The position numbers and the translations under genes were made by a program. DNA of 64,000 nt from Eledone cirrhosa (taxonomy: Eukaryota). Of this stretch, positions 11,500 through 62,195 are shown piece after piece. Each line of letters opens with the position of its first letter. The first letter of the stretch is position 1. The stretch spans positions 35,464,001 to 35,528,000 of the forward strand of contig OZ024750.1 in the NCBI GenBank assembly GCA_964016885.1, written 5' to 3'. A model generated the notes under the pieces. That model saw nothing but the letters and a program-made list of their open reading frames with translations, was not told the DNA's origin and searched no databases.

Positions 11500-11790
11500 A
11501 TGTGTCTGATGGTAGCTAAGATGCTTCCATAGACGGTATGCCAGTTGAGCACTCTATGCTCTTACAGAGCAGAGTATTATATAATATAAAATGACAAATC
11601 AGTGATGCATCAGAACTCAATTTATTGCGTGCTACAATTGTTTCGCCGGCGGACAGCTCGAGGCGCGATCATTGTGTGGATCTGTCTGATTCTGGACCCG
11701 CAGGTTCGACGGACACGTCTAATGATTTCTAATTGTAACACACAATAAATTGAGTTCTGATGCATCACTGATTTTTCGTTTTATATTATA
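11500..11790 (-). mobile_element. Fold-back mini-element in (TA)n with variant hammerhead (11628-11717)
   Basis: ~60-bp inverted arms (11579-11639 / 11731-11790); minus strand CGTGT-CCGTCGA-[long stem II]-GAA-ACAATTGT-A-GCACG then AATAAA. Confidence 0.75.
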
Positions 11791-13334
11791 TATATATTAT
11801 ATATATTTTATATTATATATATATTATATATATTTTATATTATATATATATTATATATATTTTATATGATATATATATTATATATATTTTATATTATATA
11901 TATATTATATATATTTTATATTATATATATTATATATATTTTATATTATATATATTATATATATTTTATATTATATATATATTATATATATTTTATATTA
12001 TATATATATATTATATATATTTTATATTATATATATATTATATATATTTTATATTATATATATATTATATATATTTTATATTATATATATATTATATATA
12101 TTTTTTATTATATATATATTATATATATATTATATATATATTATATATATTTTATATTATATATATATTATATATATTTTATATTATATATATATTATAT
12201 ATATTTTATATTATATATATATTATATATATATTATATATATTTGAGGTTGGTGTTAGGAAGGGCATCCAGCTGTAGAAATCAAGCCAGAATCAGTTCCC
12301 GTCCCACCCTTGCAAGCAGAGAAAAGTGGACGTAAAATGAAATGATGATGAAATGATGATATATATATATATATATATAATTGTTTCTACTTTTGGCACA
12401 AGGCCAGCAATTACCCAGTGCATTACTGGTACTTTATCGACCCCGTAAGGATGAAAGGCAAAGTAAACCTCGGCGGGATTTGAAATATATATAATTGTTT
12501 CTACATTTGGCACAAGGCCAGCAAATTATCCAGTGCATTACTGGTACTTTATTTTATCGACCCCGTAAGGATGAAAGGCAAAGTCAACCTCGGCGGGATT
12601 TGAACTCAGATCGTAAAGGGACGTAACTCTGCTGGAAAGCATGGCGTCCGACCCTCTACCGATACTGCCAATCCACCATATATATATATATAATGAAGGA
12701 AGTGTGGTAAGGAGCCAGGTGGACCATAACACACCAGAGTACTCAATACTTAGGGTAGTAGAGTGGGTAATAGGAAACGAGTCAGGACCCTGGCAGCTGA
12801 GCTCTGGCCGTTTCGACAGCTAGGTCAGACCTAGCTGTTGAAATGGCCGGAGCTCAGCTGTCAGAGTCCTGACTCTTTTCTTATATATATATATATATAT
12901 ACGTGTATATATATTAGATATGTCTCATTTAAAATAATACAGCCAACTTTCCACGCAATACTTTTAGTTAGCACCCCGAACACATAATTGGGAATATAAT
13001 CACTTAGTTCCTAATGTTTGTTGAGTGAGTTGGAATTTGGCCGGAGTATCGCTAAAAAGCTTTCTCCGATATTGTATTTATATATATATATATATATATA
13101 TATATATATATATATATATAACCAAATTATGCAGTTTTAACACTACTTTTATTGTTACTTTCATCTCATTTTAAATGTTAACAAAATATTTATGTTTTTT
13201 TTACTAAATTCTAATGAAGCTGCTTATATCAGACAAAAAAACTTTAAATTTATAGATTCTTCATGAATTTAACTTATTTTGCTTTGGTTGGTGTTCACAC
13301 TATTTAATTTATGTTCTCTCAGTTATATATATAT

Positions 13335-15548
13335 AAAGAAGACGATTTAGAGACGTATGACATAGATAATAACTGTTCTTACGTGACAACTTACTGCAGG
13401 CTACTGATGAAACTTGTGGCTGGAGCAGAGCTCCAACCAGACAGAGAGTGACCTGGTGGTGGAACAGCACAGTAGATAAGGCCATTAGAGACAAAAGACT
13501 AGCATGGAAGGCTTGGAAAAAGGGTGGGAGTAGGGAAGGATATACAGCCGCTAAGAGAGAAGCTAGACGTCAGGTGTACTTAGCACGCAGGGAGGCTGAG
13601 AGTAGGAGGTTTGCCAATGTTCTGCGACGGGAAGATCAGAGGCATGCGGTGTTCCACATTGCAAGGCAGTGTGTCAATGCAAATCATGATGTTGTTGGAG
13701 ATAAATGTGTCCGGAATGATGCCAGTGTACTTAGTGTCACGAATGATCAGAAAAAGGAGGCCTGGAAATGTCATTATGAGAGATTGATGAATGTGGATAA
13801 CGAATGGGAGAGAGAGAAATTACACTCAGTAGATCCGACAGAGGGACCAGCTATTGAGATTGACGAATATAGAGTCCAAGAGGCGATTAAGGATATGAAA
13901 AATGGTAAGGCTGCTGGACCATCGGGGATAGTTGCTGAGATGCTGAAGGCATCAGGGGATGTAGGCACTAAACTGGTTGCACGCATCATCAATCAGGCTA
14001 TATATGGTGGTGTCATACCCAAAGACTGGTGCAGCAGTATTCTCATAAATTGCTACAAAGGTAAAGGGGATGCTCTGGAGAGGAGCAATTATAGGGGTAT
14101 AAAACTGATGGATCAGGTTATGAAAGTGGCAGAAAGGATATTAGCACAACTAATTAGAGAAAGGGTCAAACTAGATGAGATGCAGTTTGGTTTTGTGCCT
14201 CGGAAGAGTACAACAGATGCCCTCTACTTGGTGAGACAATTACAAGAGAGGTTCTTAGATAAAAATAAGCCACTATACTTAGCCTTTGTTGACCGAGAGA
14301 AGGCCTTTGATAGAGTACCCCGATGTGTCATCTGGTGGTCCCTAAGGAAACTAGGTGTTGAGGAATGGCTTGTGAGGACAGTGCAAACTTTGTACAGAGG
14401 TACTGTCAGTAAAATCAGGGTAGGAATGGAGTTTAGTGAGGAATTCCAGATACAAGTAGGAGTACATCAAGGTTCGGTCCTCAGCCCGCTCTTGTTCATT
14501 ATAGTCCTCCAAGCCATAACAGAGGAGTTTAAGACTGGCTGTCCATGGGAATTCTCTATGGTGATGATCTGTTTCTTATAGCAGAATCAATAGAGGAGCT
14601 AGAGAATAAATTCTGGCTATGGAAACAGCAGTTGGAATCAAGAGGACTGACAGTGAACCTAGCTAAGACAAAAGTGTTGATGAGTAGAAAAGAGGACAAA
14701 ACCCTGATTCCGTCAGGGAAATGGCCATGTTCGATATGCAGAAAAGGAACTGGCATAAATTCTATATAATGTACACAATGCAGATCTTGGGTACACAAGA
14801 GATGTAGTGGGATAGCAGGCAAACTAACAGGTAGGGAGAAATACGTATGCAGTAGATGTACAGGGAAATTAAACAGTAGAAGTCGCATTGATAGACACAT
14901 TTTTCAAATGCAGGCGGATGCTATAGAAGTGGTGGATAGCTTCAGGTACCTAGAAGATCAGATTAGCATGGGAGGGGGTTGTTCCGAGGTCATAGTATCT
15001 AGAATAAAGACAGGTTGGAAGAAGTTTAGGGAGCTGCTTCCTCTGCTGACGAAGAAGGGTTTCTCCCTGCGTACGAATGGCCGGTTATAAGATGCCTCTG
15101 TGAGGAGCGCGATGCTGCATGGTAGTGAGTCATGGGCAGCAACTGCAGAGGATATGCGACAGCTGGCGAGAAATGAGGCAAGCATGCTCCGTTGGATGTG
15201 CAGTGTCAATGTGCGTGAACGACCCAGCATGAATGTGTTGAGAGAGAAACTGTGTCTGAGAGGGATAGAATGTAGTGTGCGATAGAGGAGACTGAGGTGG
15301 TATGGACATATGATGCGCATGGAGGATGACCGATGGGTGAAGAAGTGCCAGGAAATGTCAGTTGAAGGAAGACGTGGTAGAGGTAGACCACGAAAAACAT
15401 GGGCGGAGGTGGTGAGGACAGACCCCAGATCGCTGAAGCTCACGGTGGAGATGACGAAGGGCCGTGACAAGTGGAGAGATGCTGTGCTGAATAAGACCCG
15501 TTCCACCCTTGCAAGCAGGGAAGTACGGACATAAAATGATGATGATGA
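13335..15548 (+). mobile_element. RTE LINE subfamily A, 5'-truncated and degenerate (RT + PHD-like finger)
   Basis: NYRGIKL, QFGF, AFVD.EKAFD, GVHQGSVLSPLLF, YGDDL, LRWYGH, RGRGRPRKTW; frameshift near 14545 and stops; (GAT)n tail. Confidence 0.97.
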
Positions 15549-15618
15549 TATATATATATATATATATATATGGAGGCACATGGCTCAGTGATGATATATA
15601 TATATATATATATATATA

Positions 15619-60559: not shown

Positions 60560-61447
60560 TGCAGAAAGCGTAACAATAGACAAACTATCTGGTTCTCTCC
60601 TCCCTTCTCACTCAACGTTAAAACCAATGTAGGCAAACAATTTCTAGCCCTCTTAGATAGACACTTTCCCATAGGTCATAAATACCGCTCCATCTTTAAC
60701 CGACACAAAGTAAAACTAGAATACTCCTGTGCTAAGAACATGAAAACCCACATCACCAACGGCCCTAAGAGCAACACCCCACCAGGGTGCTCTTGCCGTA
60801 AGCCTGAAGCTTGTCCCCTTCAACAGCAATGCAATATTGCCGCTGTAGTTTATGAAGCTGTGGTCACTTCCAACTGACCAAATCAACCACAGGAGGTCAA
60901 ATCTCATGTGCGTATGGCGGAGGGCCGATTTAAGGAATGCACCGGTCAACCTTTAGGTACCTGGATACGAAACTTGTGAGCCATGTATGGTCCCTCAAGG
61001 AATCAAGTATAGACTACTCCATTCAATGGAAAGCCATCACTATGTCCAAGCCATATGCAAGGGGCAATCCATCGTGTGGACTATGTATTGATGAACGAAT
61101 TAATATTCTAAAGAGATTATGCAATAGTGATTGCATAAACATGAGAAATGAATTCTTCACACGTTGTCCACACATCTGGAAACACCTCTTACATAACTAC
61201 AAAGCTCCGGATTGAATTACAACATCCTAATTTTCTTAAAAACTAGAAACTTTCAGACTTTCGCAGTTATCTCAAACCTCTCGCACGCAATTTAGTATTG
61301 CCTGTGTGAAGTGATCATTTCTGCGCATGTGCGTTCGTACAGTTGTCCTTCCTGTTCTGTATAACCATGTCCATTACGAGCTGAGGATCCGCTAAGGTGA
61401 AACAATTGCTCTCAGTATGGTGAACTAACTGTTGTGTAACCACTTCT
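60560..61447 (+). mobile_element. Penelope-like retroelement 3' portion: GIY-YIG domain, 3' UTR and HHR (61378-61413)
   Basis: IWFSPPFSLNVKTNVGKQFL...YSC...CSCRKPEACPLQQQC...VVYEAVV...HRSTF...CGLC...RCPH; then GAG-CTGAGGA-T-CC-GCTAA-GG-T-GAA-ACAATTGC-T-CTC (U16.1 mutated); ends in (TA)n. Confidence 0.9.
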
Positions 61448-61669
61448 ATATATATATATATATATATATATATATATATATATATATATATATATATATA
61501 TATATGTATATGTATGTATATATATATATATATATATATATATACTATATATATGTGTATATAATGTATATATATATATATATATATATATATATATATA
61601 TATATATATATATATATATACATACACACACACACACACACACATATATATATATATATATATATATAT

Positions 61670-62195
61670 AGAAAGGATAAAAAGGACAATTGATTATTCC
61701 TTCATTGCATTTATTGATAGGTGACGCGCGTTTCGCCACTGATCAGCTCAAGGTTCGATCTGTATCGATCCTACCCGACTCAATAATCGGCAGCTCGACG
61801 GACCCTCTTAAAATGCTATAAGAAAATTTTCTTATAGCATTTTAAGGAATGCTTCCTGAACCACCGGTCAACCTTTAGGTACCTGGACACGAAACTTGCG
61901 AGCCACGTATGGTCCCTCAAGGACTCAAGTATATTTTCTTATAGCATTTTAAGAGGGTCCGTCGAGCTGCCGATTATTGAGTCGGGTAGGATCGATATAG
62001 ATCGAACCTTGAGCTGATCAGTGGCGAAACGCGTGTCACCTGTCAATAAACGTAATGAAGGAGTAACCAATCGTCCTTGTTATCCTTTCTATATTTTACA
62101 CTCTGTATAGCTCTACACATCATCACAGAAGTGAACCTAAACATCGAGTGCTCACCCGAGTGAATCTGCAGTAACTCCTAGTTACACCCACTGGA
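61670..62195. mobile_element. Fold-back mini-element with two opposed CCGUCGA-core hammerheads (61719-61805 minus, 61955-62041 plus)
   Basis: GGGT-CCGTCGA-GCTGCCGAT...ATCAGTGGC-GAA-ACGCGYGT-C-ACCT; arms ~158 bp; spacer holds a GIY-YIG ORF piece. Confidence 0.88.

What the first reader, a model, noticed from the sequence alone, without database searches (positions are those of the whole stretch)
11500..62195. Fold-back architecture: inverted arms end at internal TA-like microhomologies
Seen: elements at 11.5, 12.7, 17.1, 26.0, 26.5, 31.6, 36.5, 49.0, 50.3 and 61.7 kb consist of a complete 3' end plus an inverted partial copy. The inverted arm typically stops where the element itself reads TAT/TATA (CCTTTCTATA, CTCATCTATA, CTGTGATA, TTTTCATAT, AACAATAT) and merges into (TA)n. 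The 16.55-kb copy is a non-overlapping inversion breaking at CATAATGTA, the same point where the 49.4-kb copy ends. Established: inverted 5' repeats occur in PLEs, and twin priming inverts L1 5' ends. Inference: because (TA)n is self-complementary, both target strands can prime or capture cDNA, making inversion the default and leaving dsRNA-forming hairpins with ribozymes on both strands.
Basis: partly seen in the sequence, partly recalled or inferred. Interest (0 to 1): 0.7.

Follow-up and report, generated by a model that had tools for sequence, protein, structure and literature searches.

The report
Penelope insertions primed from both ends
These back-to-back mirror repeats are real insertions of Penelope-type jumping genes in TA repeats, and their two outer ends almost always fall at two different fixed points of the element, which suggests that both cut DNA ends likely start copying the same RNA, each at its own start site, rather than one copy folding back on itself.

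Summary
All ten listed fold-backs and the 16.55-kb inversion are real. They are head-to-head stumps of Penelope-like elements (PLEs); three families run on into Hydra-clade ORFs in other copies.

The inverted arm does not stop at any TA motif. Each family has two fixed end points, S and L, that bound the known PLE 'tail'. Of 119 inverted insertions flanked by (TA)n on both sides, 114 are S+L, 1 is L+L and none is S+S. S arms pass 298 other TA motifs with 1 stop. S carries 3-6 nt of TA microhomology in 8 of 9 families.

In 41 of 108 pairs the 'inverted' arm holds sequence the other arm lacks, so it is not a simple fold-back of it. Yet the arms share variants (160 against 47 expected), which points to one source.

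Best reading (0.65): both nicked target strands prime reverse transcription, one at S and one at L, and the two cDNAs are joined head to head. The layout is published; the strict S+L pairing was not found in five literature searches. This scan noted the same thing earlier on other pieces of this genome.

The parts
11501..11792 (.). Family B fold-back: L arm 11501-11725 (minus), S arm 11731-11792 (plus)
   Evidence: related to family A at 70%
12691..12881 (.). Family C fold-back: L arm 12691-12822 (minus), S arm 12826-12881 (plus)
16546..17065 (.). Family H non-overlapping inversion: S arm 16546-16892 (minus) joined to an L arm that holds only the tail, 16893-17065 (plus)
   Evidence: H is a 591-bp tandem unit
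17069..17985 (.). Family D fold-back: L arm 17069-17724 (minus), S arm 17725-17985 (plus)
   Evidence: D is a tandem unit
20453..20807 (+).
25986..26441 (.). Family E fold-back: L arm 25986-26255 (minus), S arm 26258-26441 (plus)
26493..26905 (.). Family A fold-back (pLTR stump of a Hydra-type PLE): S arm 26493-26667 (minus), L arm 26668-26905 (plus); type I hammerhead region in both arms
   Evidence: an 83-nt public contig matches 26613-26695 exactly
31606..31786 (.). Family C fold-back: S-side arm to 31645 (minus), L arm 31646-31786 (plus)
36463..36698 (.). Family F fold-back (pLTR stump of a Hydra-type PLE): S arm 36463-36530 (minus), L arm 36531-36698 (plus)
48964..49163 (.). Family G fold-back (pLTR stump of a Hydra-type PLE): S arm 48964-49023 (minus), L arm 49027-49163 (plus); type I hammerhead core near 49032-49070
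49206..49304 (.).
49456..50244 (+). Family H partial tandem without inversion that ends at S directly into (TA)n
50343..50538 (.). Family C fold-back: S arm 50343-50398 (minus), L arm 50399-50538 (plus)
61666..62197 (.). Family I fold-back: S arm from 61666 (minus), 40-bp local palindrome 61807-61846, 86-nt insert, L arm 61933-62197 (plus)

Best explanation
These are head-to-head insertions of Penelope-like retroelements (Hydra-type ORFs follow in three families) whose two outer ends sit at two fixed internal points, S and L, likely because both nicked strands of a (TA)n target prime reverse transcription, one at S and one at L, on RNA from one source copy. Shown: the layout, the two fixed points, the near-exclusive S+L pairing, the non-nested arms, the shared variants. 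Inferred steps: (1) the GIY-YIG endonuclease, probably as a dimer, cuts both strands of (TA)n; (2) RNA signals just 3' of S and L fix the two start sites, and 1-6 nt of AU-alternating RNA pair with the TA primer to set the exact register; (3) both cDNAs run towards the RNA 5' end, the L cDNA either stopping near S (non-overlapping class) or displacing the S cDNA (overlapping class); (4) the two cDNA ends are joined with 0-5 nt of microhomology or a few added bases; (5) if only one start site is used, an ordinary 5'-truncated S-only or L-only copy results.
For: Ends fall at two points in all nine families. Pairing: 114 S+L, 1 L+L, 0 S+S, 4 with one unclassified end, of 119; unbiased stretches alone 31 S+L of 32. 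Prospective test on near-full-length family G elements: 8 of 8 resolved inverted insertions were S+L, with either end on the long arm; 2 of 10 unresolved. S alone ends 21 of 54 single-orientation copies and 4 of 6 resolved long ones, so it is a start site. Inner geometry is symmetric: S arm further 31, L arm further 35, equal 32, non-overlapping 10; in some pairs the arms share no sequence. 9 of 32 equal-length pairs have a central spacer of 0-2 nt, too short for a hairpin loop. No excess of scars at S inside L arms (4 of 31, 4 of 32, 3 of 35). Shared variants 160 against 47 expected, 14 private in 8 of 81 pairs. In vitro precedent: the anole PLE cuts and extends both strands, starts at two internal RNA sites that bound the tail, and is predicted to be a dimer (PMC11167929, parts 1-2 of 4 read).
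Against: Overlapping arms from one RNA need strand displacement or template reuse, which is not shown for PLEs. Shared variants cannot tell one RNA molecule from two RNAs of one locus, nor from later gene conversion; 33 of 121 diagnostic sites are discordant. Short local snap-backs that do not start at S exist in the window (7.57, 20.45, 61.8 kb). The 35 L-further and many equal-length pairs are also compatible with fold-back. In the anole system initiation needs no homology to the target, unlike the microhomology seen here. The targeted searches required the tail, which favours L ends. For families B, C, D, E, H and I no ORF was linked. For three long elements (L264, L272, L281) continuity between inverted arm and body was not checked.
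Confidence: 0.65

Rival explanations
1. Snap-back: one cDNA folds back on itself and is copied; the new strand stops at S and is joined to the target, or meets a short tail cDNA there. Close to the self-priming model proposed for Adineta PLEs.
For: Arms share variants; many centres are near-perfect palindromes; short local hairpins exist at 7.57, 20.45 and 61.8 kb; centre microhomology is above chance, mean 1.37 nt against 0.67; self-priming was proposed from such palindromes (PMC3846280, passages).
Against: 41 of 108 S arms are not nested in the L arm. S-only copies are common, yet no S+S and one L+L among 119. 44 of 70 clean centres have only 0-1 nt of overlap. 9 of 32 spacers are 0-2 nt, and there is no scar excess at S.
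Confidence: 0.2
2. Two RNA molecules from the same source locus, one on each subunit of a dimer, are primed from the two target strands.
For: Explains overlapping arms without strand displacement; allows some discordant sites (33 of 121); palindromic hammerhead loops could pair two RNAs (recalled from the PLE hammerhead literature, not tested).
Against: Two equivalent RNAs should give S+S and L+L as well, unless the dimer is asymmetric. Ten pairs have an L arm that ends at or before S, as if blocked on a shared template.
Confidence: 0.1
3. One reading: any TA-like motif in the element can capture the second target end because (TA)n is self-complementary.
For: Microhomology at S is real; 5' junctions of single-orientation copies have a little more TA overlap than chance (mean 1.2 against 0.58 nt, 25 scored of 41).
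Against: 298 passes over other motifs, 1 stop; 7-8 nt TA runs inside the F and H tails are not used as ends; family G mostly ends with 1 nt of overlap.
Confidence: 0.03
4. Assembly or library artefact (chimeric palindromic reads), or two independent insertions into one TA run.
For: The centre of the 61.7-kb pair was not covered in four public runs; no contig spans a whole palindrome.
Against: Arms differ by 1-7% with CpG-type decay. Ends are fixed across chromosomes. Public contigs hold other head-to-head joints of the same families, and raw Illumina reads of another sample show the S-to-(TA)n junction in 81 reads. Independent insertions would not be head to head without TA between them, nor always S+L.
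Confidence: 0.02

Closest known systems
Hydra clade of C-terminal EN+ Penelope-like elements (Craig et al. 2021, PMC8557442; section 11 and passages read)
   Same: ORF motifs, C-terminal GIY-YIG, hammerheads, (TA)n targets, inverted 5'-truncated copy, tail often at one end only.
   Different: Tails here are about 45-165 nt rather than 30-40 nt. The passages read describe the layout without counts and attribute the tail to endonuclease-mediated resolution.
Poseidon element PAc of Anolis in vitro (Frangieh et al. 2024, PMC11167929; parts 1-2 of 4 read)
   Same: Two internal start sites that bound the tail; both target strands cut and extended; AT-rich target; predicted dimer.
   Different: PAc starts without homology to the target, whereas here S usually has 3-6 nt. 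In the parts read, the paper does not link the two sites to the two ends of inverted insertions.
LINE-1 twin priming (recalled; only a search listing and abstract start of PMC2837659 seen)
   Same: The second target strand primes internally and gives a head-to-head inversion; short microhomology at the join.
   Different: The L1 second primer lands at variable places and the arms scarcely overlap. Here the site is fixed and 98 of 108 pairs overlap by more than 8 nt.
Self-priming model for Adineta Penelope palindromes (Arkhipova et al. 2013, PMC3846280; passages read)
   Same: Head-to-head inverted pLTR, tail on one of the inverted pLTRs, palindromic junctions.
   Different: Self-priming predicts nested arms; 41 of 108 are not nested.
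Non-LTR retrozymes (bioRxiv 10.64898/2026.07.22.740005; part 1 of 5 read)
   Same: Families H (591 bp) and D are short tandem units without a linked ORF, as described for PLE-derived retrozymes.
   Different: Their arrays here obey the same S+L rule, which fits target priming at two sites.

Membership tests
Hydra-clade PLE | Single ORF with RT and C-terminal GIY-YIG | tested here: met
   Family G: ORF follows L, with a GIY-YIG match at the C-terminus (PF01541, E 0.0019, below the curated cut-off); many copies have 758-aa open frames. Pfam gave no RT hit; RT motifs were read by eye.
Hydra-clade PLE | RWK-like motif and DKT in place of DKG | tested here: met
   RWR and DKT in G and F; RWR and DKM in A (read by eye against section 11)
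Hydra-clade PLE | CxCX5C linker; CxxC and CxH in the endonuclease; no CCHH | tested here: met
   G shows CxCX5C, CxxC and CxH and no CCHH by eye; F shows CxCX5C. Not seen for A, whose translation is broken.
Hydra-clade PLE | Insertion into (TA)n | tested here: met
Hydra-clade PLE | Hammerhead ribozyme in the pLTR | tested here: inconclusive
   Pattern search found a type I hammerhead in A and G, none in B, C, D, E, F, H, I; variant cores in F and H were seen by eye only; Rfam found none in the window; cleavage not tested.
Hydra-clade PLE | Position in the RT phylogeny | not tested
   No reference Hydra sequences were held; no tree was built.
Hydra-clade PLE | Families B, C, D, E, H, I linked to a PLE ORF | tested here: inconclusive
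   B is 70% like A; no ORF was linked for the others; they share the end pattern only.
L1-type twin priming | Non-overlapping inversion with a variable second priming site | tested here: not met
   Site fixed; 10 of 108 non-overlapping. It works like twin priming but is not the L1 form.
Fold-back (snap-back) duplication | Inverted arm nested within the first cDNA | tested here: not met
   41 of 108 not nested
MITE or foldback DNA transposon | Fixed terminal inverted repeats copied as one unit | tested here: not met
   Centres differ between copies and the two termini differ

The most novel reading that the evidence does not exclude
A Hydra-clade PLE dimer reads one RNA at two structurally marked start sites at once, one per target strand, using short AU-alternating patches to pair with the TA primers as a telomerase pairs with its primer. 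One cDNA displaces the other, so a single RNA yields two overlapping copies. This would explain the PLE tail, the inverted pLTR and the microsatellite bias by one mechanism.
Probability: 0.45. Interest if true: 0.75.

Novelty: new variant of a known kind. Interest (0 to 1): 0.55.

Why it matters
How PLEs form tandem and inverted structures and why they favour microsatellites is named as unresolved in PMC8557442 (passage read). The S+L rule and the non-nested arms turn this into sharp predictions for an existing kind of in vitro assay, and they argue against the published self-priming model. At 31 or more such pairs per Mb for nine families in evenly spaced stretches, the process has left a very large number of perfect hairpins in a 3-Gb genome, which would be substrates for RNA editing and silencing if transcribed (not tested).

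Tried and rejected
Rfam: no ribozyme at the gathering threshold. DNA search of the genome with the H tail found nothing because its words are too common; a pattern search found 2856 exact matches. Greedy reference building ran through fold-backs and was replaced. Pfam gave no RT hit for three ORF pieces. RNA-editing signature as a single-molecule marker: no A-to-G excess among 41 rare shared variants (8 A>G, 11 G>A). No RNA holder listed, so small RNA and editing were not examined. Public contigs: the 26.5-kb centre is matched exactly by one 83-nt contig with 28 nt on one side of the join, just under the tool's 31-nt bridging rule, in a run that may be the assembly's own sample; the 61.7-kb centre was not covered. 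Transcription-start idea for the inner-end hot spot: a TATA-like motif lies 28-33 nt upstream in G and C, none was found in A, E, F, I; left open. The first parse misread low-complexity pieces of F and E as arms; trims them (108 became 114 S+L), while searches use the 108. Alignment of nine post-breakpoint stretches was poor (45% mean column identity), so the shared signal rests on folds and reading by eye. Five literature searches listed no paper that reports S+L pairing; subscription papers are not covered.
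Full report
Setting. The window is G000:C10:35464001-35528000 of a 3.0-Gb genome. Earlier scan notes call the genome an octopus; I did not check this. The window is rich in (TA)n runs.

Observation. Self-BLAST shows palindromes or close inverted pairs at nine of the ten listed places; the 11.5-kb pair is seen in the sequence and in the jumping alignment. 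All are head to head, with both 3' ends facing outward into (TA)n. The 16.55-kb copy is a non-overlapping inversion at the point where the 49.4-kb tandem copy ends. The ten elements belong to nine families, here A-I (A 26.5, B 11.5, C 12.7/31.6/50.3, D 17.1, E 26.0, F 36.5, G 49.0, H 16.55/49.4, I 61.7 kb).

Data set. I took 100 evenly spaced 10-kb stretches (1.0 Mb, unbiased) and 150 loci from five targeted searches for A, I, H, D and G. The targeted queries contained the tail and favour copies like the window's. References were built by majority extension. A jumping alignment gave 371 insertions. Of these 173 have (TA)n on both sides and lie away from a locus edge; the other 198 were left out of the pair counts.

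What the elements are. In some copies of A, F and G the sequence runs past the supposed 3' end into an ORF. The G ORF shows the features given for the Hydra clade: RWR, DKT, CxCX5C linker, C-terminal GIY-YIG without CCHH (PMC8557442 section 11). The genome holds many G copies with 758-aa open frames. H (591 bp) and D are tandem units without a linked ORF. A pattern search found type I hammerheads in A and G only. So the window's elements are pLTR stumps or retrozyme-like units; only A, F and G are tied to an ORF.

Two fixed ends. TA-flanked 3' ends fall at two points per family, S and L: 187 S, 233 L, 16 other. The stretch between them is the PLE tail. The modal S junction overlaps the TA run by 3-6 nt in 8 of 9 families, against 3.9% of positions. 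With a generous per-family chance of 0.4 and A and B counted once, p is 0.009. Family G mostly ends with 1 nt of overlap. Where the sequence beyond L is known, L overlaps by 3 (A), 3 (F), 6 (H), 4 or 1 (D) and 1 (G) nt. TA motifs are not sufficient: S arms cross other motifs of 3 nt or more 298 times (117 of 4 nt or more) with one stop, and 7-8 nt TA runs in the F and H tails are unused. A short RCTC...GAG hairpin-like signal lies 5-12 nt past S in A, B, C, F, G, H and I and past L in A, F, G and H by eye and by folding; D and E do not show it, and the alignment was weak. This lead came from earlier scan notes.

Pairing rule. Of 119 inverted insertions, 114 are S+L, 1 is L+L, none is S+S, and 4 have one unclassified end, three of which look like degenerate S+L on reading. 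In the unbiased stretches alone, 31 of 32 are S+L, and 32 of 51 insertions are inverted. The 54 single-orientation copies end at L (32), S (21) or elsewhere (1). As a prospective test I fetched 40 near-full-length G loci and the far ends of 10 with an inverted 5' arm and 7 without. Eight of the 10 could be resolved and all were S+L, four with L and four with S on the long arm; for three of them continuity through the simple-repeat 3' UTR was not checked. Four of 6 resolved single-orientation elements end at S.

Fold-back or two cDNAs. A copy made by folding back must lie within the arm it copies. Among 108 pairs the S arm reaches more than 8 nt further 5' in 31, the L arm in 35, they are equal in 32, and in 10 the L arm holds only the tail or less. 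The 49.2-kb pair in the window shares no sequence between arms. Centres have short overlaps (mean 1.37 nt against 0.67 by chance; 44 of 70 with 0-1 nt) or short inserts (38 of 108). Nine of 32 equal-length pairs have a spacer of 0-2 nt. A hybrid model in which the S cDNA folds back and meets a tail cDNA predicts scars at S; they were no commoner in that class. Against this reading, short local snap-backs do occur (7.57, 20.45, 61.8 kb).

One template or two. In 81 pairs with 35 or more comparable positions, arms share 160 variants against 47 expected from random family members, 14 of them private, and arm-to-arm distance is below the mean distance to other copies in 75. Diagnostic sites are concordant in 88 and discordant in 33 cases; one-arm changes are mostly C>T and G>A. 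Both arms therefore come from one source, but one molecule is not proven, and F and I showed no shared variants in their 5 pairs.

Inner ends. They cluster in G (32 of 51 in 12 nt, at the 5' edge of the hammerhead, 28 nt below a TATA box) and in C (34 of 62); no such motif was found for A, E, F or I. If these are RNA 5' ends, two cDNAs running off the same end would give the tight hairpins. This is untested, and the G sample is partly biased by the query.

Real, not artefact. Arms have diverged; public contigs hold other head-to-head joints of A and I; raw reads of another sample show S running into (TA)n. Locus-level support is limited to one contig over the 26.5-kb centre; the 61.7-kb centre was not covered.

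Priming from both strands is supported. The causal role of (TA)n self-complementarity is not shown: Adineta elements have the same layout with ordinary target duplications (PMC3846280), and a SINE with 113 copies, 20 of them TA-flanked, gave one head-to-head pair. Hairpin RNA is predicted for a read-through of the 49.0-kb element (-112.8 kcal/mol, z -20.6), and it would bury the ribozyme. Expression was not testable.

Comparison with print. The layout, with an inverted truncated copy and a tail often at one end, is described (PMC8557442). Two internal start sites and extension of both strands are shown in vitro for an anole PLE, without target homology (PMC11167929). Self-priming was the proposed explanation for the palindromes (PMC3846280). 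An octopus repeat annotation has no mention of Hydra or ribozymes in its main text (PMC13282606, term search). Five searches listed no report of the S+L rule. Supplements were not read; Fig. S2 of PMC11167929 and files S1-S2 of PMC8557442 may bear on novelty and on family names. L1 twin priming is recalled.

Verdict. A known kind of element and layout, with a quantitative rule that favours two-site twin priming over self-priming. New variant of a known kind; interest 0.55.

Noticed in passing
window 38334-38465: Perfect 132-bp palindrome centred on a TA hexamer, on the 3' end of a LINE-like element with a (GAT)n tail; the only such case among 20 listed hits.
   Followed up: partly
window 61847-61932: 86-nt insert at the centre of the 61.7-kb fold-back; 71 nt of it match window 60940-61010 at 94%, suggesting a template switch to nearby sequence.
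   Followed up: partly
window 13330-15550 and 21103-24695: LINE-like RT copies with (GAT)n tails; 21103-22558 and 23251-24695 lie inverted to each other at 70% identity.
   Followed up: no
window 10956-11210 and 13075-13330: Inverted pair at 91% identity that brackets the 11.5- and 12.7-kb elements; no copies in the first 600 kb of unbiased sequence.
   Followed up: partly
window 20170-20454: SINE-like element and an inverted copy of its 3' end lying tail to tail around a TA run.
   Followed up: no
window 15629-15686: tRNA-derived SINE head at the Rfam tRNA threshold, with further copies near 27.8, 30.4, 38.5 and 63.5 kb.
   Followed up: no
window 49456-50244 (family H): Hammerhead-like fold with a U3-A8 core variant and a palindromic stem III loop, read by eye output; 2856 exact tail matches in the genome.
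   Followed up: partly
L263, L265, L280, L284: Four of 40 long G elements are 5'-truncated within about 25 nt of the upstream S site and joined to TA-rich flank; may be blocked or captured cDNAs.
   Followed up: partly
L255:403-1675 and 4456-5370: Family H-like sequence lies next to the end of the G ORF in several long copies (translations), suggesting shared 3' UTR material between families.
   Followed up: no
window 51600-54691: 103 copies of a 30-bp minisatellite.
   Followed up: no
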